Shown piece by piece: positions 11,894 to 34,832 of a DNA stretch of 64,000 bases. Where the stretch lies: IMG/VR virus record IMGVR_UViG_3300014204_013734, positions 128,001 through 192,000 of that record; one strand, 5' to 3'. This DNA is from a virus. Taxonomy: Duplodnaviria; Caudoviricetes. The translations under genes were made by a program, and so were the position numbers. Below the pieces are notes generated by a model. The model did no database searches. It saw nothing but the letters and a program-made list of their open reading frames with translations, and was not told where the DNA came from. How positions within the stretch are numbered: position 1 is the first letter of the stretch; every line of letters starts with the position of its first letter.

Positions 11894-12349
11894 ATGGCCC
11901 TTTACGAAAAAGTGGCTGCTTTGGCCAATTCCGTACCGGAACTTCGTCAACATTTGGTTCCACTTCTGAAGGAAGCAATGGAATTTCCAACGGAAGATGC
12001 TTTGAAAGATTACTTGGAAAAGCACCCGGATGCTGACCGGTCTAAACACACCGTCAAGCAAAAGAAGGACGAAGCTCGGAAACCTGATGAGGGTGTAGCT
12101 AAGAAGTTGGGGATTTCAGAGGAAGACATGGCAGCTTTGTCCAACAAGGCAAAACGCAGTTTCCCTAATTCTGTCGCGTTCAAACATTTGTTTCCAAAGG
12201 CAAAGGGGTTTAGTTTTACTGATTTGGATTATGCAAGCAATTACAGTGACGCCGATTTGAAGTCTGAGTTCGGTATCAGCAGGGATGATCTTAATAAATA
12301 CCGAGAACTTACACGGCATTTGATGAAGGCAAAGAAACGGAAGTCCTAA
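11894..12349 (+). CDS. Hypothetical protein with N-terminal EHPETR-type tag
   Basis: MALYEKVAALANSVPELRQHLVPLLKEAMEFPTEDALKDYLEKHPDADRSKH; closely similar module in 57581..58048. Confidence 0.75.
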   Translation: MALYEKVAALANSVPELRQHLVPLLKEAMEFPTEDALKDYLEKHPDADRSKHTVKQKKDEARKPDEGVAKKLGISEEDMAALSNKAKRSFPNSVAFKHLFPKAKGFSFTDLDYASNYSDADLKSEFGISRDDLNKYRELTRHLMKAKKRKS

Positions 12350-12352
12350 TCT

Positions 12353-18142: not shown

Positions 18143-21100
18143 ATGCAGCAGACAGTTTCCAGCGCAAAAGACGGCAGAAAGACGGGGGACGGGTCCGGGG
18201 TCGGATTTTTCATTCCCCTTCCTCCTGATCTTGGGGCGCAGTTCCCTGACCTTGGGGATGAAGACCGCAGCAATCCGCATACGACATTTCTTTACGTTGG
18301 GGAAGTTCCTGAAGAACGAGAAGCCGAATTCCTGGAAGTGTCTGCCCGTGTCCTGGGGACGTTGGGCGGTCTTGTTCGGGGTTATCTTGATCACCTTGAC
18401 TATTTTACGCAGCCAGACAAGGACCGGAAGGTCGCTGTCATGGCGATTCGGTTTGACAAGGATCTTGCAGCACTTAGATGGAATCTACGCGATGCCCTTC
18501 TTGATGCCGGTTTTCAGGTAGCTGATGGATTCCCCCTTCTGTACAAACCGCATGCAACTATCCAATACATGGAAGGACTTGGTTCCGAATGGAAAGGTCA
18601 TGTCCCTTCCGGGTCATGGTCATTTGACAGGATGGAAGTTTGGGGTCTGCCGAAACTGCATTCCGTTTATTTTGGTGAATCCGTGGAAGGACGTGTAGCG
18701 TCCAGGTTCCTGGAATCCATGGAACACGGGGTTTCGGTTGCCTTGATGAAGTTCTTGTCGGATGTTGCCAAAAAAGCAGGCGTGTCAAAAAACACCTACG
18801 TAGTAGGCGGGGCCGTTCGTAATTTCATTTTGGGGGTGCCCGTCAAAGACGTGGATGTCGTGATAGATTCCATTGCTTCGGGCAAGGATTCCGCATGGTT
18901 CGCCAAAAAGGTCAAGGAAGCGATTCCCGTCCCAACCAGTTTCGTGACCAATCAGTACGGTGTTGCATTGCTGACGGTGAAGGGGGATTGGTTCGTTGAT
19001 GGGGCTAATCTGAATGGGGAAACCATAGAGATTGCCAACGCCCGGAAGGAATCCTATGGTGGGGAAGCGGGCCAAGGTTACAAACCCCATATGGTCGCTC
19101 CTGCGACCATAAAGGAAGATGTCATCAGGCGGGATTTCACTTTCAACACCCTCATGTGGCGTCTCCATGATCTATCTTCCGGTCCCGATGCGGCAGAAAT
19201 CCTGGATATAACCGAATGCGGATTGAAGGATCTGCAGGCGGGGGAAATGCGGTGCCCTTCCGATCCTGACAAAACTTTTTCGAATGATCCTTCCAGATTG
19301 ATACGGGCCATAAAATTTATTTTGAAATACGGATTCAAGGTTCCCCCGGAAGTGGAAGCTTCTATTCGCCGTAACGGTCTGAAGCTCAGAAACGTCCCTC
19401 CTGGTCACCTTAGCAACATGATCATTGAATTGTTCTACGAAGGTGGGTGGGGTCGGCGTGCTTTGGAAGAAATGGACAAGTTGGGACTCCTGGAAGTCAT
19501 CAAAGACATAGCTAGGACGGACAAACCTTTCAGGGAAGCCTTGTCCAATTGGGCAGACCGCAAGGCTGACATTTCTTTCCTGTTTGACCTGATTGACATC
19601 GGGATGCCGACCGGAAGGCGTTTGAACTTCCTGACACAACCGCAGAAGGACCGTCTCAGGGAAATAACCGTACAATGGCCTGCTGAGAAGTCCGACGAAT
19701 TTGTAAACCTGCTGGAACAGCCTGGGCGCATCAAGGGTCTTGCTTTCGGGGGATTGATCCAGGAACTTGGGCTTCAAGGACCAGGAATCAAGGCGTTGAC
19801 CGACACCGTTCGCCAACGGCTTCTTGACGATCCTGATTTGGTCAGAAATCCTGACAAGCTCAGGAGGTTGGTCGGGTTGGGGAAAACGGCCGGGATTGAC
19901 AAACCCTTGGACAAGGACTGGTTGATGGCCGTCCGACGGGGATGGTTGAAATTGATGAATCCTGCTATCCGTGATTACGGCGATGTGCTGAAAGCGTTTA
20001 ATGCTTTGGATGCCTTTGCCGAAAACTTGCAGGATCAGGTGCTTAATGTCAGGCGTGATCTTTTTACGAACGATGTCAGAACTGACAAGGTAATTGCCGG
20101 CATCAAGAGGCTTCGGGAAGCAATTTCGGATTCCAGATACCATGCGAAGTTTTGGTCCGAGTGGCTTGACGGGACATCCGTGGGTTTTCGGTTGGGGGAA
20201 GATCGGACCGCAGATGCCTTGAAGATGTTGGAATTGTACCGCACGAATTTTTCTGATGCTTCTGGAACTTCAGTGAAGGGGCGTAAAAGTCCCAGCAACC
20301 CTTGGGCGAATAGCCGACAGGTTCCGTTGACTTATATCCTGGACGCGGTTTTGAAGGGGCTTTACGAAATTGCCAAAAAGAATCTGGAAGTAGGGGAGTC
20401 CGGGGACATACCGGAATATGAATCGTTCTTTCGGGAATTTTCCCTGGGAGGCATGAAGATTCTTATCAGTGATCCGAAAACACATGGTAAGGCGATAGGT
20501 GCCTATGTCCGTCAGATTGGTAAGGCAAAGCATCTTTTGGAAGCGGCTGGATTCGCCAAGGATTGGCGTGGGTTGATGATGGTCCAGTCGTCTGATTGGC
20601 ATGTTTTGACTGACACGGAAAGGGAAATATATCGGCGCAGAGGTTATGACATTCAGGAAACTGCGGGGCAGTATAGAAGTGGATCCGATTCCATTGTCCT
20701 GACTTCCCCCCCGGATTGGTCTTTGGTATTGACAATCGTGCATGAGATCGGACACCGACATTGGTCCAAGTATTTGGATGTTTCCGACAGAAAACGTTTC
20801 GCGGACTGGATTGCCGAAGGTTTGGCTCCGGTCAGCGACTACGGGAAAACCAATCCGTCAGAAGCTTTTGCAGAGGTATTCGCTCATTATGTGAATCGAA
20901 AGAACATGACCAGAGACCAGTTGGAATCCTTCAAAGCAGTGGTCAATAAGACGGCGTCCGAAAAAAAGGTGTTGAAAAACAAAAAAGGCTGCTTGATTTT
21001 GGCTCGTGTAGGGGGTTTGAGTCCGGTTAGGCAGCGCAACGAAGCGGCGCCTGCCCGTAAAGGGTTGTGGGCCTTTCTATGGCCTTGGTTTGACACTTGG

Positions 21101-24100
21101 TTGCTTAGTGGCACGAATGCTAGGGGGTGGCTTGAGAATCAAGATCAAAAAGGGGGCACGCGGTTGGAGGATTTCAAGCGCGAAGGCTACCGGAAATTCA
21201 AACATTGCGGTTATGTGTGGACGCATTTTGATATTCCAGGAAAAGAAGTTTTGACTAAAGGTCATTGGAATTTGGTTCATTCCTCGGATCTGGCGCGGGA
21301 AATTCCTCGGATATACAAGAGCGAACTTAAAGCTTTACGGAAACAGTATTGGGAAGATTCTAAAACCCCTACTACCCCGGCCGGAGTTGAAGAACAGAAA
21401 CAGCAATCCCTTGAATTTGCGGAATATTGGATACGTCGTCAGGACTGGTCCGAAATGTGCGAGGTGTTTGTTGAACCCCATATGGCGGACAAGACGGCGG
21501 CATTCACTGAAAGCGACTTGGAAACTGCCACCAAGGAGTTTGAAGAAGTTGTACAGCGTCTTACTGACAAGAGGGCCCTTTTTGAAAAAGCCTTTGCAAA
21601 CGAAAACGTTGATGACCCAAGGTATTTGCGACACAGGAAAATTGGGCTCAAGGCATGGATGGAAAAACCTTGGGCCTGGTTGGTTTTTAACGGGAATAAG
21701 TTGTCAAGAATCGTGTTGGAACGGAAATCAGTTCCTTCTGGGCAGGGGAAGGCTTTGGAAATGGCGGCTCGGACTTTCATGTCAGCCAAGCGTTTTCCTG
21801 CAGATTTTGAAGGGTGGATGGCCAAGAATTCAAAGTATGTGGCTTTCCTTCTGAATGCCGCGAAAACTTGGGAAGACAAGAAAGAAGGGGGTTCAGAACT
21901 ATTCAAGATCGGTCCATTCACTGTCCACAATACCATCGGGGCGGCGGATGCCGATTTGGAAGGTGTCCGAAAGATGTTTGAAGCAGCAACATCTGCTGTC
22001 GGACGATTGGGCGGGGATTATTCCGATTTCAAGAAGGTTCTTTACGGAGATGTGCTTGTCGTTGCCCGGTTGAGTCAGCCTAAAGTGATGGCTTGGTATA
22101 CCCCCAATGAGGATGCTGTTTATGTCCGGCAGATGAAGACCGCCGGGATTGACGATGTCCACAATCTTATTCACGAATTGGCTCATCGGTTTTGGAGAAA
22201 GTTTGCGGACGCTAAATTGAAGGCGCGTTGGGTACAACGTGATGACATTGTGCGGTGGGGGGATGATTGGTTCAAGGGTTTGAAGTTGCCTGGGATAGGG
22301 GACACCCTTCCAATTATCTTGAACAAGCAAAAGTATCCTAAGATTGTTGATTTGGACGCCAAGGTTTACAAATTGGCGGTGCCAACGATTTTGGATCCTT
22401 ACAATACTGTTTCCATCCCTCGGACCAAGGTTTTGGAATGGGTTCGGGAAGATGCCAAGAAGGAACAGTTTCCTACCCCCTATGCCGCCAGAGGAGGGGT
22501 AGAAGAACACTTCTGCGAAGCCCTTGCCCTCAAGGCACTCGGTAAGCTCCAGAAGAATCACGAAGAAGCTCTTGATAGAGTGTTCAGCGGGGAACCTGAT
22601 CCGAAGGAGATTGCGTTTGTCAAGGATGTTCAGGAGGCCCTGCGGAAACAGAATCCGTCTGTTGTAGCGTTCCGTCATCTGAAAAAGGCTGGGTTTTTCA
22701 ATGTTGGGGATAAAATTTGGTTCGGCAAATATAAAAACAAAGCCGGGATTATAAAGGGCTTTTCACGGGACCCAAAAGGCAATCCGACCGTCATCATTTC
22801 CCCTGTACCCCAAGGACGGAAGCAAGACAAGGAATTTGGCTTGTACAAAATCTGGCATGCCGATCCTGCCAAAAAGGTTGCCGTCCGTTGGATTTTTGGT
22901 TCCCCTGTCAGGGAACCTTGGCAAATGACGTTTGATGAGTTTCGGCGTGAAGTCAAAACCCAAAGAATTGAATGGAAAGCTGTTCAGACGTTTGAAGATT
23001 TTTTGAAAACGAAGAAGGTTGATCCAAAAGAGCTGCCTTCCCTTGAGGAAGAAGCTGACGTTTTGGGGGGTTTGCTTTTCAGTCGTCCAAATATGACGCA
23101 ACATGAAAAAGGTCGTTTGAAAGGAATTGTCCACAAAAAAATGCTAAAGGATAAGCTTGTTAAGGAATGGAAAGACACCGTGGACAAGGTTGAAACCCAC
23201 ACTGATCTTGATTTATCTAGAAGTTCCGATGCTGCCTATTTGAAGGTCCAGCACAAACGGGCTATCAGGAAGGCATTATCTGAAGGGAATCCAGTTCCTT
23301 CCGAAGTTCTTGCAGAATATCCCGACATCAAAACCGGGATGCGTGTCGCCCAGGATGATAGATGGGATCGTCGGAAGCCAGAAGCGTTCCGAACCCTGAT
23401 TCCCGAAGGTATTTCTAAGAGAATTTACCAAGAACAGATCGGGGAAGTCGGGGGTTTCAAGGTGTGGTTGGTAGACGGCATCGTAATTCGTGACAAAATT
23501 GATATTGATTTCACGGCAGGAGGGAACCCGTCAAGGTACGGTTACATTCCTGCGGATGAAATTTGGTTGGAAAAGACTGGGGATTCCCCATTCAGGAATT
23601 TTGATTTGGCCGCTACCTTGATTCACGAACTTGTTGAATCTTGGGTGATGTCAAACTTGGGGTGGGATTACGACAGGGCTCACGACACGGCTTCCAAATT
23701 TGAAAAGGGGTTCAGGAAGCATCCCCGACTGGTGCCGGAGAACCGGATTCTTTTGATTGCGGAATTCTTGTACCGGAAATGGTTGGGGAGTTCCATGTCG
23801 GGTCGGGTTGCCGCCCGTTACAAGGACAAGAAGACCGTTAAAGATAAGAACGGCGACGACATGGTCGTTTACGAATACAGTGACCGACAGATCGCCAACA
23901 GGAATCGGGAAAAGGCGGAACGGGTTGAAAAGCTCCGCGGCAAGTTGGACAAGCTGGTTTCTCAGGTCAAGAAAGACCTGAAGTCTGACGATGAAAAAAC
24001 CCGCATGACCGCCTTGGCGGTTGGGTTAATTAATGACGTGTACGAGCGCGTTGGAAATCCAGGATCCGCCAAGGACGGTCATTTTGGGGTCACTGGTTGG

Positions 24101-27100
24101 CTTGTCAAGCATGTGTCCTTTTCCGATGGGAAGGCCCTTCTTAAATATGTTGGCAAGTCGGGGGTTGAACAGGACAAGGAAACATCGGACGCTGGTTTGG
24201 TGAAAGCGTTGAAGGATGCCGTCAAAGGCAAGAAGAAGGATGATCCGATCTTTGAATTTGATGGAGGTCGGATCAGTTCAGAAACGGTGAACGAATATCT
24301 GAAACCTTTTGACATCACGGCGAAGGATATCCGTGGACTTCACGCCAACAAAGAAACGCAAAAGGCGTTGAAGGCTATCCGGGCTAAGGGCGGAAAGCTT
24401 CCAGAGGATAAGAAAGAACGGGAAAAGAAGCTCAAGGAGGAATTCAAGAAAGCTGTGGAAGAAGCGGCGGAAATCGTTGGACATGAACCTACCACACTTA
24501 AAAATCTGTATTTGGTTCCAAATCTGTACGAGGCGTTTATTGAAGACGGGACGGTCAAGGAAAACCTAGCGAAACAGAAAACAGCGTCCGTTGCTGCGGT
24601 AGATTTGGAAGAACAATTGAAGCTGTTGTCTCCTTCAGACCGTCACCGGTACGATGAACGGTTGAAGGAGGATCAGGAATTTAGGACTAACCAGGCTGTT
24701 ATCTTTTTGGATCGTCGTGTTCCGAAAGATCAGGTTGTCCGTCTTGAAAAGGAACGTTATCAGAAAATTTACAGGTTGTTGAAGGAATCATATAAGAAAG
24801 CACTACGAGATGGAAAAGATGTTTGGGTGCGAGGTGTTCCACAACTTCTTCCCTTGTTTTACAAATATGCCGTTGAAGCTTTGTCCGCTGAATTTCCAGG
24901 ACTTTCTTTTTCCAAACCTGTTGGATTTCTGATGAAAGATCACCAGAAGCCCCTTCGTTTGTGGGATGAAGCTGAGTATATCCATGACTACGTGGAAAAG
25001 AACCTGGGGAAAATTCATCGTGCTACCAAGACGCACGGGGAAAGGGAAGACGAGGAAGTCGCCGAATTGGTTAAGCCCTTGCCTAAGAAAAACCCCCCCA
25101 GGAATGATCTCCGGAAGGAACGCATGGAAGAGAACGACGGAGATGTAGGAAACCAGGGGGCCGACGAAGATAAAGACATGTCCTTGAATTACAAGCGGGT
25201 TGCCAACCGTTGGATTGAAGGAACCCAGAAAAAGCTATCTCCTGATCAGGAAACGCTTTTGCGTTCTTTGTGGTACAACGGGGATGATGCTGCTTTGGCG
25301 ACGTTCTTGGATTGGCCACGTTCCAAAGTCAAAAGAATTGTAGACCAGTTGCAGAAACTTGGTCTTGTGATTGTAGATTCCGACGGGATCATACAAGAAA
25401 ACACAAAGACAAATAGGATTGCCAACCGTTGGTTTCATTCCAAAAAAGACCTCATCAACGTTCGGAGAAAGGAAGATGGCAAGGTCGTTCAAGTCACCGA
25501 AGAGACCTTGAAGGAATCCCCTGATGAATATGAAACCTTGGAAGAAGGGGAACCCGAACCCGAACCCAAACCCGAACCCAAACCTGAACCTGAAAAGAAA
25601 GTTTGGGAATCAGATATGGGTTTGGTCAAGGATGATCAAGGCAAGGTGACTGGAGTTGATAAAGGCGGTAATGCCTTCAAGGAAACAGCCAAGGAATACG
25701 GGAAGGACACTGTTGAACTGGTTCTTTTCCTGCGTGCCTTTGCGCAGGGGGCCAAGATCAAAATCCCCCCTGCCCTTGCGAAAACGAAAGCCTGGAAGGA
25801 AATCTCCGATTATCCGGTTGAAACCAATCCGGCCCTTGTCAAGGGACTTTTGGAAGCCAAAGATTCCCCCTACAAGGAAGTTTTGGATGCGTTTGACGCA
25901 GCCACATCAAAGGGGAAACCTTCAATCATTCCCGAAAAGAAAAAAGAAGTTGAAGCCCCGACGGTCCAGGAAGGTGAATCCAAACCTGTTCCCAAACCGG
26001 AACCCGTTCCGGCCGTTGAAGAACCCGATACATCTGAAAAGGACTTGGATGCCGTTGTTGGTATGCTGGAAGTTGATCCTGACATGCAGGATGCTTCAGC
26101 AAAAATCACCAAGCGTTTATCCGACCCTAAAACCAGAGAAGAAGCGGTACGGGCATACCGGGAAACCTTTGACGAAGTCATGAATGAATTGAAGAACCAA
26201 GGGGGGGAAGGATTTGATGTGTCGGAATCCATGGCTACCGACCTTGGGGATGCTTTAAAGAATCCTGCCGGAGGGCGTGACGGAAAAGATTTGGGTCGCG
26301 ATTTAGCCCTTCATTCCATCGCCAAGCGTTTGGCGGATCCTGCTAATTTGGACGGGGTTGGTCTTTCGGAAGAGCCTTTGGATGAAATGACCCTTATTGA
26401 TCGGGGTGATCGTGCCCTGGAATTTTATGTCAAGTTTCCCGCTAATTTCCGTCAGGAAGTTGCTCGCCAAATGGTGGATAGGATCAGGGAAGCTAAGGAA
26501 AAAGGCGGTCCGCAAATACAGGAACTTGAACGCATTACTGCGGGTTTGCAAGCTGCTGCAATCGTTCATGATGATTTCAAGGACAAGAGGAACAAATGGC
26601 CCCTTTCTATTTCCCGTCCCGCCCCTGTTTTTAATGGGATTGTGAAATCTCTTTATGAAAAAGGGGATACTCGGGTTGTTGCGTCTTTCGGTATCGGGGC
26701 TCAAGGATTAGCTACGCCGGAAGGTCGGGAAAAATTGCGGCAGGCATTGGATTCCCTTGATGAAGATGAATTGTTTGAAGCGTTGGGCGGGGAGAAGGGC
26801 GAATGGGGTTTGATGATCCGAAACCTTAAGAAAGGGGGTTTGAGGGAAAAGGACAAGGCATGGTATTTGAATTTCATGAAGGAAATGACTGTTGGTGAAG
26901 TTACGACAGGGAATACGGTAGTGATGCAGGCGGCTACGAACGCCCAGGAAGTGAAGGCAAAGGCGGATAAAGAAAGAGAACGTAACCGGGAAGTGAAGCC
27001 GACTTCAGCCCAGATGGAACCTTCCTGGTCGGACTTAATTGATCCTAAATCCGAAAACACCATCGGGGAAGCGGCGGACGCTGTTCACAAAGATGCCCAG

Positions 27101-27439
27101 GGACGATTGCGGAAATTGCTTGAAGCTCTTTCCAAATGCTTCTTCGCTAAAGACGAAGCAAAAGGATTCCGGGATTGTTGGAATTCTTATTCTCATGGGG
27201 TCGGTATAGCACGTGGTAGCACCGGGAAGTTGGCCTTCAGTTCGGAGGAAAACGACGCCCCTAAAGAAGAAGAGATTTTAGGGTTTTTCCAGCTTCAACA
27301 GGCGGGGGCTTACCTGGAATCGGCGGAACGGAAATTCGGTCCGTTGCCGGTCAATAATCCACTGAAAGTCCAAATCCAGACTGCAATTCGTTTGGATGAT
27401 CCTTCAGAGTTGGATAAACGGTACGTACAGAAGAAATGA
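18143..27439 (+). CDS. Giant polyvalent protein: 2H phosphoesterase, class II CCA-type nucleotidyltransferase, three zincin-like domains, type IB topoisomerase, wHTH and unknown domains
   Basis: PHTTF and PHATI; VVGGAVRN...KDVDVV, EDVIRRDFTFN, NDPSRLIRAIKF; HEIGH (20741), HELAH (22172), HELVE (23624); RVGN, GKSG, KDIR and GHEPTTLKNLY (24047-24511). Confidence 0.88.
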   Translation: MQQTVSSAKDGRKTGDGSGVGFFIPLPPDLGAQFPDLGDEDRSNPHTTFLYVGEVPEEREAEFLEVSARVLGTLGGLVRGYLDHLDYFTQPDKDRKVAVMAIRFDKDLAALRWNLRDALLDAGFQVADGFPLLYKPHATIQYMEGLGSEWKGHVPSGSWSFDRMEVWGLPKLHSVYFGESVEGRVASRFLESMEHGVSVALMKFLSDVAKKAGVSKNTYVVGGAVRNFILGVPVKDVDVVIDSIASGKDSAWFAKKVKEAIPVPTSFVTNQYGVALLTVKGDWFVDGANLNGETIEIANARKESYGGEAGQGYKPHMVAPATIKEDVIRRDFTFNTLMWRLHDLSSGPDAAEILDITECGLKDLQAGEMRCPSDPDKTFSNDPSRLIRAIKFILKYGFKVPPEVEASIRRNGLKLRNVPPGHLSNMIIELFYEGGWGRRALEEMDKLGLLEVIKDIARTDKPFREALSNWADRKADISFLFDLIDIGMPTGRRLNFLTQPQKDRLREITVQWPAEKSDEFVNLLEQPGRIKGLAFGGLIQELGLQGPGIKALTDTVRQRLLDDPDLVRNPDKLRRLVGLGKTAGIDKPLDKDWLMAVRRGWLKLMNPAIRDYGDVLKAFNALDAFAENLQDQVLNVRRDLFTNDVRTDKVIAGIKRLREAISDSRYHAKFWSEWLDGTSVGFRLGEDRTADALKMLELYRTNFSDASGTSVKGRKSPSNPWANSRQVPLTYILDAVLKGLYEIAKKNLEVGESGDIPEYESFFREFSLGGMKILISDPKTHGKAIGAYVRQIGKAKHLLEAAGFAKDWRGLMMVQSSDWHVLTDTEREIYRRRGYDIQETAGQYRSGSDSIVLTSPPDWSLVLTIVHEIGHRHWSKYLDVSDRKRFADWIAEGLAPVSDYGKTNPSEAFAEVFAHYVNRKNMTRDQLESFKAVVNKTASEKKVLKNKKGCLILARVGGLSPVRQRNEAAPARKGLWAFLWPWFDTWLLSGTNARGWLENQDQKGGTRLEDFKREGYRKFKHCGYVWTHFDIPGKEVLTKGHWNLVHSSDLAREIPRIYKSELKALRKQYWEDSKTPTTPAGVEEQKQQSLEFAEYWIRRQDWSEMCEVFVEPHMADKTAAFTESDLETATKEFEEVVQRLTDKRALFEKAFANENVDDPRYLRHRKIGLKAWMEKPWAWLVFNGNKLSRIVLERKSVPSGQGKALEMAARTFMSAKRFPADFEGWMAKNSKYVAFLLNAAKTWEDKKEGGSELFKIGPFTVHNTIGAADADLEGVRKMFEAATSAVGRLGGDYSDFKKVLYGDVLVVARLSQPKVMAWYTPNEDAVYVRQMKTAGIDDVHNLIHELAHRFWRKFADAKLKARWVQRDDIVRWGDDWFKGLKLPGIGDTLPIILNKQKYPKIVDLDAKVYKLAVPTILDPYNTVSIPRTKVLEWVREDAKKEQFPTPYAARGGVEEHFCEALALKALGKLQKNHEEALDRVFSGEPDPKEIAFVKDVQEALRKQNPSVVAFRHLKKAGFFNVGDKIWFGKYKNKAGIIKGFSRDPKGNPTVIISPVPQGRKQDKEFGLYKIWHADPAKKVAVRWIFGSPVREPWQMTFDEFRREVKTQRIEWKAVQTFEDFLKTKKVDPKELPSLEEEADVLGGLLFSRPNMTQHEKGRLKGIVHKKMLKDKLVKEWKDTVDKVETHTDLDLSRSSDAAYLKVQHKRAIRKALSEGNPVPSEVLAEYPDIKTGMRVAQDDRWDRRKPEAFRTLIPEGISKRIYQEQIGEVGGFKVWLVDGIVIRDKIDIDFTAGGNPSRYGYIPADEIWLEKTGDSPFRNFDLAATLIHELVESWVMSNLGWDYDRAHDTASKFEKGFRKHPRLVPENRILLIAEFLYRKWLGSSMSGRVAARYKDKKTVKDKNGDDMVVYEYSDRQIANRNREKAERVEKLRGKLDKLVSQVKKDLKSDDEKTRMTALAVGLINDVYERVGNPGSAKDGHFGVTGWLVKHVSFSDGKALLKYVGKSGVEQDKETSDAGLVKALKDAVKGKKKDDPIFEFDGGRISSETVNEYLKPFDITAKDIRGLHANKETQKALKAIRAKGGKLPEDKKEREKKLKEEFKKAVEEAAEIVGHEPTTLKNLYLVPNLYEAFIEDGTVKENLAKQKTASVAAVDLEEQLKLLSPSDRHRYDERLKEDQEFRTNQAVIFLDRRVPKDQVVRLEKERYQKIYRLLKESYKKALRDGKDVWVRGVPQLLPLFYKYAVEALSAEFPGLSFSKPVGFLMKDHQKPLRLWDEAEYIHDYVEKNLGKIHRATKTHGEREDEEVAELVKPLPKKNPPRNDLRKERMEENDGDVGNQGADEDKDMSLNYKRVANRWIEGTQKKLSPDQETLLRSLWYNGDDAALATFLDWPRSKVKRIVDQLQKLGLVIVDSDGIIQENTKTNRIANRWFHSKKDLINVRRKEDGKVVQVTEETLKESPDEYETLEEGEPEPEPKPEPKPEPEKKVWESDMGLVKDDQGKVTGVDKGGNAFKETAKEYGKDTVELVLFLRAFAQGAKIKIPPALAKTKAWKEISDYPVETNPALVKGLLEAKDSPYKEVLDAFDAATSKGKPSIIPEKKKEVEAPTVQEGESKPVPKPEPVPAVEEPDTSEKDLDAVVGMLEVDPDMQDASAKITKRLSDPKTREEAVRAYRETFDEVMNELKNQGGEGFDVSESMATDLGDALKNPAGGRDGKDLGRDLALHSIAKRLADPANLDGVGLSEEPLDEMTLIDRGDRALEFYVKFPANFRQEVARQMVDRIREAKEKGGPQIQELERITAGLQAAAIVHDDFKDKRNKWPLSISRPAPVFNGIVKSLYEKGDTRVVASFGIGAQGLATPEGREKLRQALDSLDEDELFEALGGEKGEWGLMIRNLKKGGLREKDKAWYLNFMKEMTVGEVTTGNTVVMQAATNAQEVKAKADKERERNREVKPTSAQMEPSWSDLIDPKSENTIGEAADAVHKDAQGRLRKLLEALSKCFFAKDEAKGFRDCWNSYSHGVGIARGSTGKLAFSSEENDAPKEEEILGFFQLQQAGAYLESAERKFGPLPVNNPLKVQIQTAIRLDDPSELDKRYVQKK
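25549..25592 (+). repeat. Tandem 6-nt repeat encoding an EPEPEPKPEPKPEPE linker
   Basis: gaacccgaacccgaacccaaacccgaacccaaacctgaacctgaa. Confidence 0.8.
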
Positions 27440-27559: not shown

Positions 27560-28507
27560 ATGGCCAAGAAACTGACGACGAAGGGCGCGCTGTCCGTTAC
27601 AGGTAACCTGGATCGGCTCGCAAATTTGTTCCAGACGGAACACGAAACCTTGGGTGTAGAACCTAAGGTTGCTCAGGACTTCGCATATCGTTGCGATCTT
27701 CTCAGCGACGCCATTGAAAAGACTGCAGGTGTCGATCGGGTTGCGTTGACCGAACTGGATGTAGTCCAGGAATCCGGTTACGACCCTGAACAGATCGGCG
27801 AGGAAAAGGCCGGTCCTATGATTGGTGATGCCGACGAACCCTACATGAAGGGCAATTTCGGTCAGGAAGAGAAGCGGGAACTCCGTTATGACGTGGAACA
27901 GGGCAAGATTGGTCCTGACCGTATCGTCCCTGAACAGAAACCCCTCCAGCCCGGCAAACAGGCCGGATTTGAAGTTCTTGGCAAGCAAGCCGCCGTCAAC
28001 AGTTTGACCGGTTATGAAGGGGTTTTCCGTGATGCTTCCCTTCGGTTTGCCAACGCCGGGAATACCGATCTTGCCAAAGCGTTCTTGAAGCTTGCAAAGT
28101 CTACCATGGATGCCCAGGTTGGTATCCTTACGGGAACCCGTTCCGCAAGCAATATCAGTCGCCTCATGGAAGCAATCAAGCTTCTCGCTCCTCATGTCGC
28201 TGCCGTGAATCCGGCTTCCTACGGTGAAGTTTCCAAGATGGCAGACCTGGTTTTGAAGGTTGCCGGTGAAGACGAAGAAGAAGAAGACGACGACGACAAA
28301 GAAGACGCAGAACCGGAAGATTCCAAGGAAGCCAAAAAGGCTGGGAAGAAATCCGAAGACGAAGCCAAGGATGATGACAAGAAAGACGACAAAGACGAAG
28401 CCAAAGGCAAGGACGAGAAGAAGGATGAATCCAAAGAAGACTTCCTGAAGAAGATGCAGGAAGGCAAGGACAAGAAGTCCAGCCACGGTTTCAACCTGTC
28501 GGAATGA
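27560..28507 (+). CDS. Putative prohead core/scaffold-associated protein with D/E/K-rich tail
   Basis: AAGGAGGAG RBS; charged C-terminus; KTA, KQA and KVA motifs; located in the head module. Confidence 0.6.
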   Translation: MAKKLTTKGALSVTGNLDRLANLFQTEHETLGVEPKVAQDFAYRCDLLSDAIEKTAGVDRVALTELDVVQESGYDPEQIGEEKAGPMIGDADEPYMKGNFGQEEKRELRYDVEQGKIGPDRIVPEQKPLQPGKQAGFEVLGKQAAVNSLTGYEGVFRDASLRFANAGNTDLAKAFLKLAKSTMDAQVGILTGTRSASNISRLMEAIKLLAPHVAAVNPASYGEVSKMADLVLKVAGEDEEEEDDDDKEDAEPEDSKEAKKAGKKSEDEAKDDDKKDDKDEAKGKDEKKDESKEDFLKKMQEGKDKKSSHGFNLSE

Positions 28508-28511
28508 AGAA

Positions 28512-29090
28512 ATGACCCGCAAGAACGCGACATTGTCAGTTAACTACCAACAACGGGCGAAGCTATTTGCCGTAAACGATATTGTTTACCCGTTTTGGGG
28601 TTCCGCCGAAAAGACGGGACGTGTCGTGGCGGTTTACCCGGCAATTGGGATGGTTGATGTCGAATGGCCACACGGAAATGACCGTGTACCCGTTGAGGAC
28701 CTTCAGCAACTGAATCCCCACAGTCTGTTCCAACCTCCGTCCATCCCTGCCGGGGAAGATAGTATCCCCGGTGGGGCTGGGCAGGTTTCCGTATCCCCAG
28801 GACCAGTTAACAAAAATTCAGCTCTCCGTGTGGCGGCCGCTTTCATTAAGAAAGCCCTTTATTGGGCCGACAAAGACCGGCAGTACAAGGCCACGCAAGG
28901 GGAACTTGATGACAAGTGTTACCATTGCCCGAAGTGCGGGGAAGAACTGCGGAAGGCAATCTACAAACGTCGTGATGGCGCCAGTGTCCATCTTCTCGGT
29001 TGCGGAACATGCTTGTTCCTGATCAAAAAAGAAGACATCATTGGCGATCCTGAATATGCGGGTCCGAACATCGAAATAGAAGGTGTTTGA
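28512..29090 (+). CDS. Hypothetical protein with C-terminal zinc ribbon
   Basis: CPKC...CGTC; RVAAAF and KKA motifs between its two domains. Confidence 0.7.
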   Translation: MTRKNATLSVNYQQRAKLFAVNDIVYPFWGSAEKTGRVVAVYPAIGMVDVEWPHGNDRVPVEDLQQLNPHSLFQPPSIPAGEDSIPGGAGQVSVSPGPVNKNSALRVAAAFIKKALYWADKDRQYKATQGELDDKCYHCPKCGEELRKAIYKRRDGASVHLLGCGTCLFLIKKEDIIGDPEYAGPNIEIEGV

Positions 29091-29092
29091 CC

Positions 29093-32000
29093 ATGGCATT
29101 TTTGCGTTACAGTAACGCCCGGGTTGTTTCCCCCCACGTGACTCATGTGCAATGGGGGAAAATTAGGACGGCTGGCCTTGTTACTAAGGTTGGTGGCCAG
29201 TTGGACGAAAATCTTGTCGATCGGGCCAGTGAATTGTTCGACAAACAATTCAACCCCAACGACTTTCTTCTGACCCACGCCACTATCATTGCCAGCGTTG
29301 ACACGTACAAACCGGCCGGGGATATGGGGAAGACAGGTTCCTTCTTGATGGATGGATTCCGGGTCAACCGCAAATATGCGGATTATAGAATTACCCAAGA
29401 GACTCAAAAATACATCAACAGCAATTGCCTTGTTTCTGGGACGCCCATTGTGATGGCAGATGGAACAGCAAAATCAATTGAAGATGTTGTTGTAGGGGAT
29501 GATGTTATCACCCATATGGGACGGATCAGAAAAGTCACAGAAACTTTTTGTCACGAAGTTCATGGAAACTTGTATGAAATCAAAGTATATGGTTCTAACG
29601 AACGTCTGCATGTGACTAAGGACCATCCTTTTTTTGTTTTTCGTCCAAATAAACAATGTGCTGAGTGTGGAAGCCCCTTAAAAAGATCTTTGCAATGTAT
29701 TTCGCAACTGCTTGGGAAGCATTACTGTTCCAAGGAATGCTATTACAAGAAAAGGGTCACAAACAAAGAACTTCTTAAAAAGAAGCATGGGGTTTTCGTT
29801 CCCGTACATGATTTGCAGGTAGGGGATTTTGCAGCAGTTCCTGTAGTTTCAGAAGAAATTCCAGTTAATTTGACATTAGGGCAGGCTCGTTTGATTGGCC
29901 TTTTTCTTGCGGAGGGTTATTACGAATTAGATAGCCGGCACGATAATGAAAAAGTTGGGGCTATGTGGGCGTTTCATGAAAAAGAAACAGAAACATTAGC
30001 CCATACTGTTTGTTCTTTGATGAAATCAGAATTTGATGTGGATTGTGTCATTCGTCATTGCACTGATACTAAAGGTATTATGGTAACGACAAAAGTCAAC
30101 CGCCAAGCTGCGGCTTTCTTTTCCCGATGGGTTCTTGGAGAAGATTCTACTAGTAAATATCTTTGCGCGGATTTGTTGAGGGCTCAGAAACCCATTCAGA
30201 TGGAAATAATGCGTGGCTGGTTTGATGGGGATGGTTCGGCTTTTAGTACCGGAACTGAAGAAATTCCCATAAGGGATTTTCGGATGACCGGATGCACATC
30301 ATCTCGGAAAATGGTTTCCCAACTGCAAATAATTCTGCATCGTCTTGGTATTTCACCTCGGTTAGCCTATGTTCTTAGTGAAGGTCGCCAACGAACGGTT
30401 ATTGATGGTCTTGTTAAGGTGATACCTGATCCAACAAAAATTCAATACAGTTGGGTTTTGTCTTGTGGCGCTGGATGGATATCTGAATTGGTAGAAACAA
30501 CCCGATTTGAAGAATCTTATAATGAAGTCATGTCTATTTTAGGGGGGGTTCAAGAAGTTCCAGATCTTAGGTTTCTGAATGGTTTTTGTATTAGGATGAT
30601 AACTTCAATAGAACCATATCCTTATCAAGGATTTGTTTATAACATTGAAACAGAAGAAGATCATTCTTACATTGCAGGTGGAATTGCCGTACATAATAGC
30701 GATAGTTGGTCCCGTGAAGTGCTTTTGAAGGCGTATCCAACGTTCATTGGCGGGCACAATTTCTGTTTTGCACCGGGTACTAGGGTTCTCTTGGAAAATG
30801 GCATCTATAAAGCCATTGAAGAAATACGTGTTGGCGACAAAGTTGTTACCCACAAAGGTGTGTTGCAGGAAGTAACCCACAAATTTGAACGCCAATTCCT
30901 GGGGAATCTTCAGGTTATTTGTGTGGATGGGTTTGAACATCCCTTGCGTGTTACTGGAAACCATCCTTTTTTGGTGATGGAAAACCAAACTGGAAATACC
31001 TGGATTCCAGCAGATAAACTGCAAGTTGGAACCCTCTTGGCAGGGACCAGTTCGGAAATAGGTGCTGTCAATTATCGTGTCCTATCCAATGTTGAAGTTT
31101 CTTACGAAGGTCTTGTGTACAATCTTGAAGTTTGTGATGATAATTCCTACATCGTGGAACCTGGTGTTGCAGTTCATAATTGCGAGCACGTCCAGGTTGA
31201 ATCTCTGAGCAAGGGTCGCATCATTGATGCAGTTGCCCGTGACATCGGGGATTCGGTCTACGTTGACATCCTCATTGCCACTGACCGCAGACACAAGGAT
31301 CTCATTGAATCCATTGAAAATGGCAAGACGAATACACTGAGTATGGGATGTTCAGTGGACATGACTACATGTACTAAATGTGGCCACGTGGCCGCTGACG
31401 AGACCACTCTTTGTAACCATATAAAATACGAAAAAGGCAATACCTTTTTTGACGAGCAAGGACGGTCACATCGTATCTGCGAAATTTGCGGCCACCAGTC
31501 TATTGATCCGCACGGAGGGGTTCAGTTCATTGAAGCTTCGTGGGTTGCCCAACCGGCATTCACTGGAGCTGTGATGAGGAACATCATTCAGCCGACCGAA
31601 GATACCGTTCGTTTGGCGCAGCACATTCTCAATACCCCTCCGCCGCAATGGACCGAAGATTCCCGTCTGAAAGCCGCTAGGCATGAGGTTGTTGGGTCTA
31701 CAGGGACGGACGGCAACGGCAACGGCAACGGAGAAACGGTTGTAGTAGGTTCCTCAAAATTCCGTACGGCAGACATGTCTTCCGGCGGACGGCATTTCAC
31801 TGTTACGGCTGCCGAAATGGATCCTTTCATGGCAGGTTGGAACGAAGAGGATTCTTCAGGTACGGAACCGGAAAAACCACCTGTCCAGCCAACCCCAGCG
31901 GATCCTTTGACGCAGGTTGAAGACGATTTGGAAAAGCACCTTGTAGACAAGGTCGTCAAACGTGTCAGGGATCGTCTAAAAGACCAGGCTGTTGAAGAAA

Positions 32001-32431
32001 CTCTGAAACCGTCGTCAGCCGAAACCAACGAAAACGTGGTTAAAGAAGCCCGTACCGCCAAGTTGGCGATTCGTGTTTACAAGGCTGGTTTGAAGGCCCT
32101 TGTCAAGAAGTCAACCAACGGGGCGGATCTGTTGGATTCCGTTGCTGCATTCAATCAACAGGCAGGAATTGATATCCCCGTTGACGTTTACCGGACGGCA
32201 TTGGCTGTAGGTCCTTCTTCTGACCATGAGTCTATCGATTCGTTCCTGGATAAATGTTCACAGTGTTTGGGACGGTGTCCCGACATCAGTGAATCAAAAA
32301 CTCTGGTGAAGTTGTGCAAGTTGCTTTCGCAAGGACAACCTTTGTGGAAAGCGGATTCCAGTGGAAGCCCCCTAAATCAGGGGACGCGTCAAGCGGTTCG
32401 AAACAAACCCGATTGGAGGAACGTGAAATGA
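29093..32431 (+). CDS. Prohead (capsid maturation) serine protease with two inteins
   Basis: Spliced extein NSN|SDSW...YPTFIGGHNF|CEH...TLSMGC...CTKCGH...FIEASWVAQPAF fits a His/Ser phage prohead protease; upstream of scaffold and capsid genes. Confidence 0.82.
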   Translation: MAFLRYSNARVVSPHVTHVQWGKIRTAGLVTKVGGQLDENLVDRASELFDKQFNPNDFLLTHATIIASVDTYKPAGDMGKTGSFLMDGFRVNRKYADYRITQETQKYINSNCLVSGTPIVMADGTAKSIEDVVVGDDVITHMGRIRKVTETFCHEVHGNLYEIKVYGSNERLHVTKDHPFFVFRPNKQCAECGSPLKRSLQCISQLLGKHYCSKECYYKKRVTNKELLKKKHGVFVPVHDLQVGDFAAVPVVSEEIPVNLTLGQARLIGLFLAEGYYELDSRHDNEKVGAMWAFHEKETETLAHTVCSLMKSEFDVDCVIRHCTDTKGIMVTTKVNRQAAAFFSRWVLGEDSTSKYLCADLLRAQKPIQMEIMRGWFDGDGSAFSTGTEEIPIRDFRMTGCTSSRKMVSQLQIILHRLGISPRLAYVLSEGRQRTVIDGLVKVIPDPTKIQYSWVLSCGAGWISELVETTRFEESYNEVMSILGGVQEVPDLRFLNGFCIRMITSIEPYPYQGFVYNIETEEDHSYIAGGIAVHNSDSWSREVLLKAYPTFIGGHNFCFAPGTRVLLENGIYKAIEEIRVGDKVVTHKGVLQEVTHKFERQFLGNLQVICVDGFEHPLRVTGNHPFLVMENQTGNTWIPADKLQVGTLLAGTSSEIGAVNYRVLSNVEVSYEGLVYNLEVCDDNSYIVEPGVAVHNCEHVQVESLSKGRIIDAVARDIGDSVYVDILIATDRRHKDLIESIENGKTNTLSMGCSVDMTTCTKCGHVAADETTLCNHIKYEKGNTFFDEQGRSHRICEICGHQSIDPHGGVQFIEASWVAQPAFTGAVMRNIIQPTEDTVRLAQHILNTPPPQWTEDSRLKAARHEVVGSTGTDGNGNGNGETVVVGSSKFRTADMSSGGRHFTVTAAEMDPFMAGWNEEDSSGTEPEKPPVQPTPADPLTQVEDDLEKHLVDKVVKRVRDRLKDQAVEETLKPSSAETNENVVKEARTAKLAIRVYKAGLKALVKKSTNGADLLDSVAAFNQQAGIDIPVDVYRTALAVGPSSDHESIDSFLDKCSQCLGRCPDISESKTLVKLCKLLSQGQPLWKADSSGSPLNQGTRQAVRNKPDWRNVK
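29426..30697 (+). mobile_element. Intein (424 aa) with LAGLIDADG endonuclease and a Cys-rich insert
   Basis: CLVSGTPI, VTKDHPF, LIGLFLAEG and MRGWFDGDG, end VYNIETEEDHSYIAGGIAVHN|S. Confidence 0.95.
30764..31180 (+). mobile_element. Mini-intein (139 aa)
   Basis: CFAPGTRV, VTGNHPF, end VYNLEVCDDNSYIVEPGVAVHN|C; no endonuclease domain. Confidence 0.95.
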
Positions 32432-34822: not shown

Positions 34823-34832
34823 GGAGGGAGCC

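What the first reader, a model, noticed from the sequence alone, without database searches (positions are those of the whole stretch)
18143..27439. 3098-aa head-module protein looks like a cleavable polyprotein of injected enzymes
Seen: the ORF lies between the portal and the core/protease genes. It carries a 2H phosphoesterase, a CCA-type nucleotidyltransferase, three zincin-like domains, topoisomerase IB, a wHTH and unknown domains. Boundaries are marked by short recurring motifs: RVASRF (18692), KTAG (19883), KTAS (20948), KTAA (21491), VVAFRHLKKAG (22661), KVAVRW (22874), RVAARY (23804), KTAS (24578), RVANRW (25196), RIANRW (25415). Known: phage polyvalent proteins concatenate such domains. 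Inference: it is packaged and cut by the prohead protease into separate enzymes delivered with the DNA.
Basis: partly seen in the sequence, partly recalled or inferred. Interest (0 to 1): 0.9.

Follow-up and report, generated by a model that had tools for sequence, protein, structure and literature searches.

The report
Tag-punctuated cargo polyprotein of huge phage
A 3,098-residue protein encoded next to the portal gene of a 381-kb phage is a string of about twelve enzyme-sized modules. Short conserved peptides sit exactly at the module borders, and they most likely label the modules for loading into the capsid and mark where the capsid protease cuts them apart, though neither has been measured.

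Summary
The ORF (18143-27439, +) is intact and all ten motifs are in frame at the stated coordinates. [KR][VI]AxR[WYF] occurs 5 times against 0.02 expected, and KTA[GSA] 5 times against 0.21.

Comparison with 33 giant orthologues and more than 1,200 module homologues puts homology breaks at 8-9 of the 10 sites. AlphaFold places sites 184 and 581 in the only low-confidence gaps between folded domains.

- RVAxR[WYF] is a helix-forming tag. It also sits at the extreme N- and C-termini of stand-alone homologues encoded anywhere in related genomes, so it works as an address or docking label, not only as a junction.
- [KR]-x-A-[S/G/A] looks like the cut site. It lies between tag and module, and it is conserved or invariant in the phage's own protease (both flanks of the catalytic domain) and in the scaffold proteins.

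Packaging, cleavage and injection are all inferred, not shown. One KTAG (residue 1332) lies inside a folded block, so that motif alone does not define a border.

Earlier notes of this scan report similar tag codes in other huge-phage genomes. I found no published description. The closest known systems are the T4 capsid-targeting sequence with gp21 processing, and polyvalent proteins.

The parts
18143..27439 (+). 3098-aa modular (polyvalent) head-module protein, P0001
   Evidence: Open frame and translation. 33 giant orthologues of 1.7-4.5 kaa. Same position in a 435-kb relative.
18200..18676 (+). Module 1: 2H phosphoesterase (residues 20-178; HxT at 46 and 137)
   Evidence: pLDDT about 90. Pfam 2_5_RNA_ligase2 E 2.2e-4, below the cut-off. 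The homology block ends at 178-188.
18692..18709 (+). Tag RVASRF (residues 184-189) between 2H and CCA
   Evidence: In frame. pLDDT below 50 at residues 181-190 between two confident domains. 23 homology breaks nearby.
18713..19882 (+). Module 2: CCA-type tRNA nucleotidyltransferase (residues 191-580)
   Evidence: Pfam PolyA_pol E 2.9e-15. PDB CCA enzymes at E 1e-14. pLDDT above 85.
19883..19894 (+). KTAG (residues 581-584), putative cut site after CCA
   Evidence: Orthologues carry [KR]-x-A-[GAS] here and diverge right after it. pLDDT below 50 at residues 582-589.
19907..20947 (+). Module 3: zincin-1, lethal-factor-like metallopeptidase (residues 589-935; HEIGH at 867, EAFAE)
   Evidence: The 585-1120 query (zincin-1 plus the next module) has 545 homologues. 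Stand-alone zincin-1 forms begin M-x(2-8)-RVARRF and then the module. Weak ATLF hit.
20948..20959 (+). KTAS (residues 936-939), putative cut site after zincin-1
   Evidence: About 140 HSP ends fall at residues 930-945. Homologues have K-[TQRS]-A-[SGA] here, often followed by a tag and the stop codon.
20963..21490 (+). Module 4: unknown (residues 941-1116)
   Evidence: Stand-alone homologues of 180-250 aa match from about residue 941.
21491..21502 (+). KTAA (residues 1117-1120), weakly supported border
   Evidence: In frame. Only 3 homology breaks nearby.
21503..22660 (+). Module 5: zincin-2 (HELAH at residue 1344). Contains an internal KTAG at residue 1332 (22136-22147).
   Evidence: The homology block runs from about residue 1160 to about 1500 in 15 orthologues, with no break at 1332.
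22661..22693 (+). Composite tag VVAFRH-L-KKAG (residues 1507-1517)
   Evidence: 21 breaks nearby. Orthologues have RVADRY-LKRAG or RVAHRY in front of the same small domain.
22694..22873 (+). Module 6: small about 60-aa domain (GDxIxxGKYKNKxGxIxGF)
   Evidence: Block at residues 1506-1580 found in about 25 relatives in different contexts.
22874..22891 (+). Tag KVAVRW (residues 1578-1583)
   Evidence: 21 breaks nearby. It resembles the C-terminal DPAKRVALRW of the stand-alone HAD protein.
23342..23365 (+). RVAQDDRW (residues 1734-1741), likely an extra border
   Evidence: P0002 and P0003 homology ends at residue 1736. P0005 starts at 1740 and P0024 at 1753.
23366..23803 (+). Module 8: zincin-3-like, degenerate (HELVE at residue 1828)
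   Evidence: Block at residues 1740-1890 shared with P0005 and P0024. Motif position.
23804..23821 (+). Tag RVAARY (residues 1888-1893) before Topo IB
   Evidence: 140 breaks nearby. The upstream sequence differs in every orthologue. It lies at a helix-to-strand junction with pLDDT 64-81.
23819..24577 (+). Module 9: type IB topoisomerase (residues 1893-2145; catalytic Tyr 2123)
   Evidence: Pfam E 6.3e-26. pLDDT above 90. R, K, R, H and Y are invariant in 90 sequences.
24578..24589 (+). KTAS (residues 2146-2149), putative cut site after Topo IB
   Evidence: 118 breaks nearby. Orthologues have K-[QKR]-[GAS] here and then unrelated sequence. It is in coil after the domain.
24590..25195 (+). Helical insert (residues 2150-2290) and acidic disordered block (2291-2351)
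   Evidence: pLDDT 35-81. The acidic block is conserved in 59 or more relatives, where a tag precedes it.
25196..25213 (+). Tag RVANRW (residues 2352-2357)
   Evidence: 68 breaks nearby. The conserved LSLNYK-RVAxRW is followed by divergent sequence. It forms a short helix.
25220..25402 (+). Module 11: winged-helix-like domain (residues 2360-2420)
   Evidence: Three helices and two strands, pLDDT 70-87. Several wHTH families at E about 0.02.
25415..25432 (+). Tag RIANRW (residues 2425-2430)
   Evidence: In frame. It forms a helix after the wHTH. There is no comparative support.
25433..27436 (+). C-terminal region (residues 2431-3098), function unknown, with a PEPK repeat
   Evidence: Weakly conserved (21-28% identity) at the C-end of most orthologues. 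No Pfam or Atlas match.
27560..28507 (+). 315-aa scaffold-like head protein with a conserved K-T-A-G (27719-27730)
   Evidence: [ED]-[KR]-x-A-G is kept in 25 of 28 related loci ([KR]-x-A in 25) while x varies.
29087..32431 (+). Prohead protease (two inteins). R-T-A-G at 29165-29176 and K-A-A-R at 31670-31681.
   Evidence: PHROG head maturation protease and inteins. R-x-A is invariant at the N-end, and K-x-A follows the catalytic domain, in 23 orthologues.
32428..33906 (+). EF-hand scaffold-like protein. R-K-A-S at 32470-32481 and R-V-A-S at 33757-33768.
   Evidence: [KR]-x-A-S is conserved before APPATPGY and before RPQPRK in about 50 loci. RVAS here aligns with KTAS or KKAS elsewhere.

Best explanation
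P0001 is a polyvalent head-cargo polyprotein. About twelve independently folding modules are joined by a two-part peptide code. In order the modules are a 2H phosphoesterase, a CCA-adding enzyme, two intact zincins and one degenerate zincin, a small beta-rich domain, topoisomerase IB, a winged helix and several unknown modules.

- **Part one** is a basic, helix-forming tag, [KR]-[VI]-A-x-[RK]-[WYF] followed by a hydrophobic residue. It acts as an address or docking peptide that brings a module into the assembling procapsid.
- **Part two** is [KR]-x-A followed by a small residue (S, G or A). This is the site where the phage's own prohead protease cuts, freeing the modules and removing terminal tags.

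The freed enzymes would then leave the capsid with the DNA.

**Shown:** modularity, position of the motifs at borders, tags on stand-alone homologues, conservation of [KR]-x-A in protease and scaffold proteins, and conserved head-module location.

**Inferred:** packaging, cleavage, the identity of the protease, and injection.
For: 1. **Borders.** Homology breaks coincide with the motifs (62% against 10%, 0 of 5000 permutations). The zincin-1 module is bounded by KTAG 581 and KTAS 936.
2. **Folds.** AlphaFold gives confident 2H (20-178) and CCA (191-581) domains, with pLDDT below 50 only at 181-190 and 582-589. Topo IB (1893-2144) has pLDDT above 90 and KTAS 2146 lies in the coil after it. RVANRW and RIANRW are short helices flanking the wHTH.
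3. **Tag autonomy.** In 304 family proteins there are 296 tags against 8 expected. 80 lie in the first 25 residues and 31 in the last 26.
   - Stand-alone Topo IB proteins of 275-360 aa begin M-x(2-11)-RVAARY, and many end with a tag.
   - Stand-alone zincin-1 proteins begin M-x(2-8)-RVARRF.
   - These genes can lie far from head genes.
   - A different tag replaces RVARRF at the same place in one homologue.
4. **Cut site between tag and module.** C-ends read module-K[TQRS]A[SGA]-x(0-4)-tag-stop. N-ends in this genome read M-x-tag-KKAS or KTAG-module.
5. **Same core in classical protease substrates.**
   - R-x-A is invariant at residue 25-27 of the protease.
   - K-[AV]-A comes directly after the catalytic domain, followed by variable sequence.
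   - R-x-A-S and K-x-A-S occur at conserved places in the scaffold-like protein.
   - [KR]-x-A-G occurs in the 315-aa protein family while x varies freely.
6. **Position.** The portal - polyprotein - protease - scaffold - capsid order is kept in a 435-kb relative.
Against: - No virion proteomics, no cleavage data and no structure of the protease exist. No PDB relative was found by sequence.
- KTAG 1332 lies inside the zincin-2 block, so the short motif is not sufficient.
- [KR].A[GSA] is only 1.2-fold enriched across the whole genome.
- N-terminal RVARRF tags abut the zincin-1 module with no separate K-x-A-small site. Either the cut is inside the tag or those tags are not removed.
- RVAARY merges into the first strand of Topo IB, so that tag is partly structural.
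- The protein carries two seemingly intact zincins that could do the cutting instead.
- Very large virion proteins such as N4 vRNAP are packaged uncut (Iyer 2017, PMC5512222).
Confidence: 0.5

Rival explanations
1. Address tags only. The motifs dock the protein, and the stand-alone homologues, to a capsid or scaffold component. The 3098-aa chain is packaged and ejected uncut, as a beads-on-a-string multi-enzyme.
For: - Tags sit at the extreme termini of stand-alone proteins, where cutting would remove only 5-12 residues.
- The tags form helices in the models.
- N4 vRNAP and several plasmid polyvalent proteins are transferred full-length (PMC5512222).
Against: - A separate [KR]-x-A-small element lies between tag and module, and is conserved in protease and scaffold proteins where docking is not needed.
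- Several junctions (581, 936, 2146) carry only that element and no tag.
Confidence: 0.2
2. Self-processing. The embedded zincin metallopeptidases (or the abundant stand-alone zincin-1 homologues) cut the junctions, in the capsid or after injection. The prohead protease is not involved.
For: - Iyer et al. 2017 proposed exactly this role for zincin (MPTase) domains of polyvalent proteins.
- Zincin-1 (HEIGH...EAFAE) and zincin-2 (HELAH) look intact.
- 27 of 34 giant proteins have at least one HExxH.
Against: - 7 of 34 orthologues have no HExxH yet keep tags and junction motifs.
- The [KR]-x-A core is invariant on both flanks of the prohead protease domain and in scaffolds. This is the usual signature of the prohead protease's own specificity.
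Confidence: 0.12
3. Not capsid cargo. The polyprotein and the tagged proteins work in the infected cytoplasm (tRNA end repair, DNA relaxation). The tags assemble them on another hub or compartment.
For: - Tagged stand-alone genes lie outside head modules.
- The 2H, CCA and HAD_SAK modules fit RNA repair, and this phage has CCA-less tRNAs.
Against: - The polyprotein gene is fixed between portal and protease across relatives.
- The junction core is shared with protease and scaffold.
- Polyvalent proteins in this position are generally taken to be packaged (PMC5512222).
Confidence: 0.08
4. Inert linkers. The motifs are domain-capping or linker sequences that spread with the modules by recombination, with no addressing or cleavage role.
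For: RVAARY is partly built into the Topo IB fold. Module shuffling happens at the motifs.
Against: - The same six-residue pattern flanks unrelated folds.
- It is 36-fold enriched and is kept at the free termini of stand-alone proteins.
- Its codons differ between copies, so DNA homology is not what is conserved.
Confidence: 0.05

Closest known systems
Phage T4 capsid targeting sequence (CTS) on IPI-III and Alt, removed by the prohead protease gp21; likewise the propeptides of phiKZ/SPN3US head proteins cut at A/S/G-x-E (PMC10052503, PMC5694885)
   Same: - A short shared peptide on otherwise unrelated proteins.
- A protease consensus directly next to it.
- The same consensus in scaffold proteins and in the protease itself.
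- Cargo that includes host-modifying enzymes.
   Different: - The consensus is [KR]-x-A then a small residue, not (L/I)-x-E or A-x-E.
- The tag can be N-terminal, C-terminal or internal.
- Many modules are fused into one chain.
- No sequence relation of the protease to gp21 was detected.
- Nothing has been shown experimentally.
Polyvalent proteins of phages and conjugative elements (Iyer, Burroughs, Anand, de Souza, Aravind 2017, PMC5512222)
   Same: - Up to 15 unrelated enzymatic domains in one chain.
- Encoded beside portal and virion genes.
- Zincin peptidase domains.
- Orthologues carry ART-PolyVal, RNA ligase, GNAT and similar domains.
- Predicted to be packaged and injected.
   Different: - That work does not use the word 'linker', and I saw no junction code in the passages read. 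It proposes zincin autoprocessing.
- Here a two-part junction code is conserved over hundreds of phages.
- The code is shared with stand-alone proteins and with protease and scaffold.
Herpesvirus assemblin release and maturation sites, (V/L/I)-x-A then Ser (own knowledge)
   Same: - Ala at the cut position with a small residue after it.
- One site lies directly after the protease domain.
- Further sites lie in the scaffold.
   Different: - A basic residue two positions before the Ala is required here.
- The fold of this protease was not determined.
Encapsulin cargo-loading peptides (own knowledge)
   Same: A short terminal peptide, at either end, that addresses unrelated enzymes to the inside of an HK97-fold shell.
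   Different: - The sequence is different.
- Here the tag is coupled to a probable protease site.
- The shell is a DNA-filled virion.

Membership tests
Polyvalent proteins (Iyer et al. 2017) | Several unrelated catalytic or binding domains in one polypeptide | tested here: met
   2H, CCA nucleotidyltransferase, zincins, Topo IB and wHTH. About 12 homology blocks.
Polyvalent proteins (Iyer et al. 2017) | Encoded by a phage next to portal, terminase or virion genes | tested here: met
   The order is TerL, portal, P0001, protease, scaffold, MCP. A relative has the same order.
Polyvalent proteins (Iyer et al. 2017) | Domain set varies between orthologues and is drawn from conflict or repair enzymes | tested here: met
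   Orthologues add HAD_SAK, RNA ligase, GNAT, SOD, PARP/ART-PolyVal, ChaC and C45 domains.
Polyvalent proteins (Iyer et al. 2017) | Packaged in the capsid and delivered to the host | not testable with these tools
   No virion proteome exists for this clade. Phage G proteomics (PMC12484599) concerns a distant relative that lacks this gene.
T4-type CTS plus prohead-protease processing | Short shared peptide at the N-terminus of unrelated internal proteins | tested here: met
   80 of 296 tags lie within the first 25 residues. Stand-alone Topo IB, zincin-1 and proteins of this genome carry them. The resemblance is in function, not in sequence.
T4-type CTS plus prohead-protease processing | Protease consensus shared by cargo, scaffold and the protease itself | tested here: met
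   [KR]-x-A is conserved in the protease N- and C-flanks, the scaffold and the 315-aa protein, and at cargo junctions.
T4-type CTS plus prohead-protease processing | Demonstrated cleavage after the consensus | not testable with these tools
   This needs mass spectrometry or an in vitro assay.
T4-type CTS plus prohead-protease processing | Protease homologous to gp21 (Peptidase S77/U9), Glu-specific | tested here: not met
   No Pfam hit other than inteins and no PDB relative. The consensus has Ala, not Glu. It therefore works like the T4 system but is not a member of that family.
Type IB topoisomerase | Catalytic R-K-R-H-Y set and family profile | tested here: met
   Pfam Topoisom_I scores 91.6 bits against a cut-off of 23.7. 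R1969, K2005, R2064, H2114 and Y2123 are invariant in 90 sequences.
Class II CCA-adding / poly(A) polymerase | Head-domain profile with GG-x-V-R and D-x-D | tested here: met
   Pfam PolyA_pol scores 57.1 bits against a cut-off of 23. PDB CCA enzymes match at E 1e-14. GGAVRN...DVDVV is seen in the translation. CCA versus poly(A) specificity was not tested.
2H phosphoesterase | Two HxT/S motifs and the family profile | tested here: inconclusive
   H46-T-T and H137-A-T are present. Pfam gives 21.8 bits, below the 27-bit cut-off. Orthologues with 68% identity carry PF13563. The fold is confident but was not compared with solved structures.

The most novel reading that the evidence does not exclude
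Huge phages of the phage-G-like capsid lineage (540 MCP relatives in IMG/VR alone) use a portable two-part peptide code: a basic helix tag plus [KR]-x-A then a small residue. With it they load any enzyme into the capsid, either as a tagged single protein or as a bead on a polyprotein, and release it with a protease of herpesvirus-like Ala specificity. The code would be a readable list of each phage's injected arsenal, and a handle for packaging foreign proteins.
Probability: 0.4. Interest if true: 0.8.

Novelty: new variant of a known kind. Interest (0 to 1): 0.7.

Why it matters
If the code works as proposed, it has several consequences.
- The injected protein arsenal of hundreds of uncultured huge phages could be read from sequence alone. 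That arsenal includes RNA-repair enzymes, topoisomerase IB, peptidases, ADP-ribosyltransferases and superoxide dismutase.
- It would explain how very large multi-enzyme genes arise and break up, by fusion and fission at a shared junction.
- It gives a concrete and cheap experiment: the protease plus a junction peptide, and a tagged reporter plus procapsids.
- It would add a third, independent example of tag-and-cut capsid loading beside T4 and phiKZ, with a cut rule that recalls herpesvirus assemblin.

Tried and rejected
- **Alignment A1 (region 1480-2480).** Short fragments were pulled into the Topo IB columns, so it was not used. Colinear alignments A2 and A3 were folded instead.
- **Protease fold class.** Sequence and profile searches of the PDB found nothing.
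- **C-terminal 500 residues.** The protein-atlas search gave no usable hit.
- **Phage G and Tunturi_5.** tblastn of P0001 against their head regions found nothing. These cultured relatives lack the polyprotein.
- **Genome-wide [KR].A[GSA] count.** The result was 279 against 227 expected, too weak to use as a marker by itself.
- **Rfam on the tRNA region.** It gave no HDV-type match at E 0.01 or better, so the ribozyme reading from earlier notes is not confirmed here.
- **DNA-level repeat or recombination signal.** Rejected, because the codons differ between copies.
- **Complex prediction.** Not run. The receptor of the tag is unknown, and the tool's own guidance advises against enzyme-substrate pairs.
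- **Literature.** Searches found no description of this code. The phage G multi-omics paper reports no cleavage sites.
Full report
**What is there**

The window lies in a single 381,280-bp contig of a jumbo phage. Its major capsid protein is 84% identical to that of the uncultured 485-kb phage LR745208.1. It is more distantly related to Tunturiibacter phage Tunturi_5 and Bacillus phage G.

ORF 18143-27439 (+) is open for 3098 codons. It follows the large terminase (12353-14233) and the portal (14792-18070, with a LAGLIDADG intein). Downstream of it lie:
- a 315-aa and a 192-aa protein;
- the prohead protease (29087-32431, interrupted by two inteins);
- an EF-hand, acid-rich scaffold-like protein;
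- a 232-aa protein;
- the capsid protein.

The same order is found in a 435-kb metagenomic relative.

**The motifs**

- [KR][VI]AxR[WYF] occurs five times against 0.02 expected.
- KTA[GSA] occurs five times against 0.21 expected.
- The copies use different synonymous codons, so the constraint is on the peptide, not on the DNA.

**Do they mark borders?**

A search for proteins of similar length found 33 giant orthologues of 1.7-4.5 kaa. They share a CCA-enzyme and Topo IB core, and otherwise carry different domains: HAD_SAK, RNA ligase, GNAT, superoxide dismutase, PARP/ART, ChaC, a C45 peptidase and inteins.

BLAST of P0001 against these and 120 shorter relatives shows homology starting and stopping at residues 188, 581, 1486/1511, 1575, 1885, 2147, 2291 and 2358. 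Of 684 HSP ends, 62% lie within -12..+17 residues of the motif sites, against 10% for random sites. None of 5000 permutations reached this value. The hits are related to each other, so this is a strong pattern and not a formal probability.

A library-wide search with residues 585-1120 found 545 homologues. It defines a zincin module at 589-935 and a further module from about 941, so KTAG 581 and KTAS 936 are borders too.

AlphaFold models built on colinear alignments agree.
- 2H (20-178) and the CCA enzyme (191-581) are confident. The only internal stretches with pLDDT below 50 are 181-190 and 582-589.
- Topo IB (1893-2144) has pLDDT above 90, with KTAS 2146 in the coil behind it.
- The acidic block 2293-2351 is disordered.
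- RVANRW and RIANRW are short helices on either side of a winged-helix-like domain.

Two sites rest on thin evidence: KTAA 1117 and RIANRW 2425.

**Two different elements**

Printing the context of every tag in the orthologues changed the picture.
- Before Topo IB the sequence is always RVAA[RK][YF] followed by the conserved start of the enzyme, while the 30 residues upstream differ in every protein.
- After the Topo extension the conserved LSLNYK-RVAxRW is followed by unrelated sequence.
- The small domain at 1518-1577 has a tag on each side wherever it occurs.

Stand-alone relatives then show that the tag is not only a junction.
- Topo IB proteins of 275-360 aa, some on contigs of 190-570 kb, begin M-x(2-11)-RVAARY. 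Many end with ...RV[AVL]xR[YWF]L and two to six more residues.
- Two such genes sit among small unknown genes, far from any head module.
- About fifty stand-alone zincin-1 proteins begin M-x(2-8)-RVARRF, one residue before the module.
- In one of them the same place is taken by a different peptide (…LRKHLVPLLK). That peptide also heads five genes of this window, ends one and is internal in one.
- Over 304 family proteins there are 296 tags against 8 expected, with 80 in the first 25 residues and 31 in the last 26.
- In this genome the tag heads or ends at least eight other proteins, among them a HAD_SAK_1 phosphatase that ends ...RVALRWIKRNA. In LR745208.1 that phosphatase is fused to Topo IB through a tag.

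A peptide kept at the free ends of single proteins must do something on its own. An address or docking function is the simplest reading.

The second element is [KR]-x-A followed by S, G or A.
- At the C-ends of zincin-1 homologues the order is module, K-[TQRS]-A-[SGA], zero to four residues, tag, stop. The same order is seen in several Topo IB proteins.
- At N-ends in this genome the order is M, tag, KKAS or KTAG, module.
- The end of the CCA module carries [KR]-x-A-[GAS] in nearly all orthologues, and similarity stops right behind it.
- The end of Topo IB carries K-[QKR]-[GAS].

An element that lies between tag and module is what a tag-removing cut site would look like.

**Is that the head protease's rule?**

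I fetched 80 related head modules through the capsid protein, out of 540 relatives in IMG/VR.
- In the 315-aa protein family, [ED]-[KR]-x-A-G is kept in 25 of 28 loci while x takes eight different residues.
- The scaffold-like protein keeps R-x-A-S before APPATPGY near its N-end.
- It keeps K-x-A-S before RPQPRK, and [KR]-[TA]-A-S before its conserved C-terminal peptide.
- In this phage, RVAS sits where relatives have KTAS or KKAS.
- In 23 intein-free proteases, R25 and A27 (R-x-A-[GSA]) are invariant. K-[AV]-A follows the catalytic domain directly and is followed by unrelated sequence.

Self-cleavage on both flanks, plus the same consensus in scaffolds, is the usual behaviour of prohead proteases (T4 gp21, phiKZ/SPN3US gp175/gp245; PMC10052503). 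The Ala-then-small-residue rule also recalls herpesvirus assemblin (own knowledge). This is conservation evidence, not a measurement.

**What speaks against it**

- The broad pattern [KR].A[GSA] is only slightly enriched genome-wide.
- KTAG 1332 is internal to a fold.
- RVARRF abuts the zincin-1 module without a separate cut site.
- RVAARY runs into the first strand of Topo IB.
- The protein also has two apparently intact zincins, and Iyer et al. 2017 proposed that such domains process polyvalent proteins. However, 7 of 34 orthologues have no HExxH at all and still carry the tags.
- Some giant virion proteins are packaged uncut.

**Function of the modules**

- The Topo IB catalytic set R-K-R-H-Y is invariant.
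- The 2H-CCA pair is fused in most orthologues.
- HAD_SAK_1, RNA ligase and kinase domains appear in relatives, which points to RNA-end repair.
- Two tRNA genes of this phage lack an encoded CCA and are followed by a shared element of about 85 nt. Earlier notes of this scan read this element as a ribozyme, but Rfam did not confirm that.
- A ribozyme cut would leave a cyclic phosphate. A 2H enzyme, a phosphatase and a CCA-adding enzyme could turn that end into a mature one. This is only a lead.

**Comparison and novelty**

The system works like the T4 capsid-targeting sequence with gp21 processing, and the protein fits the definition of a polyvalent protein. It is not a member of the gp21 system: the consensus differs and no homology of the protease was found.

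I found no paper describing this junction code.

Earlier notes of this scan describe the same tag in this genome (e1-5481921). They also describe analogous tag or cut codes in other huge phages (e1-5410417, e1-5361049, e1-5358065). The theme has therefore been found before on other DNA within the scan.

**Verdict**

The best explanation is a tag-and-cut cargo polyprotein, with probability about 0.5.

Noticed in passing
window 5846, 10624, 11936, 55751, 56251, 57241, 58139 (+): A second shared peptide (…[AV]A.EHPE[TL]R..L[VIL]P[LI][LI]KEA) heads five genes, ends one and is internal in one. In a zincin-1 homologue from another phage (P0178) it takes the place of the RVARRF tag, so the two tags look interchangeable.
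   Followed up: partly
G000 87636-88295 (L004:3636-4295); L002:14202-15728 (-): A stand-alone HAD_SAK_1 (RNA-repair type) phosphatase ends with the tag RVALRWIKRNA. In LR745208.1 the same kind of HAD domain is fused through a tag to Topo IB, as a 508-aa gene in the polyprotein's slot. This is a natural fusion and fission at the tag.
   Followed up: partly
L004:2395-2477 and 1946-2034 (-), i.e. G000 about 85.9-86.5 kb: tRNA-Leu(cag) and tRNA-Ser(gga) have no encoded CCA. Each is followed by a shared element of about 85 nt (…cagggctaatcgcttgg…). The neighbouring tRNA-Ser(gct) does encode CCA. Rfam gives no HDV match. The 2H, CCA enzyme and HAD_SAK modules could finish such 3' ends.
   Followed up: partly
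window 14792-18070 and 29087-32431; orthologues P0003, P0012, P0019, P0022: Inteins are frequent in this head module: one in the portal and two in the prohead protease here. Several orthologues have inteins inside the CCA module of the polyprotein.
   Followed up: no
G000 94224-99167 (L004:10224-15167): A 1647-aa protein carries other repeated peptides: …EFPTEKA.K.YLKEHPKADPSNHTV… occurs twice and …YEEG[VK]PADPTENM[ST].ED[AK]… five times. It ends with KTAS plus a tag-like NSVEGWLKF. It may belong to the same cargo set.
   Followed up: no
window 29087-32431; alignment A5: The protease catalytic domain carries an invariant four-Cys insertion (MGC…C..C…C.H), probably a zinc ribbon. It has no detectable sequence relative in the PDB.
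   Followed up: partly
L002:18401-19684 (+) and 21852-23153 (-), 12115-12975 (-): In LR745208.1 the terminase-portal-head region is interrupted by two TnpB-like (IS200/605-type) genes and a GIY-YIG homing endonuclease.
   Followed up: no
window 34782-35717: The capsid gene most likely starts at the ATG at 34833 (MTQTNQV…), not at 34782. Relatives align from there and have stops upstream.
   Followed up: yes
G000 92817-94214 (L004:8817-10214): A Peptidase_C39-like protein carries an internal tag (QIAKRWLRKVA) 84 residues before its end. This is another tagged peptidase outside the head module.
   Followed up: no
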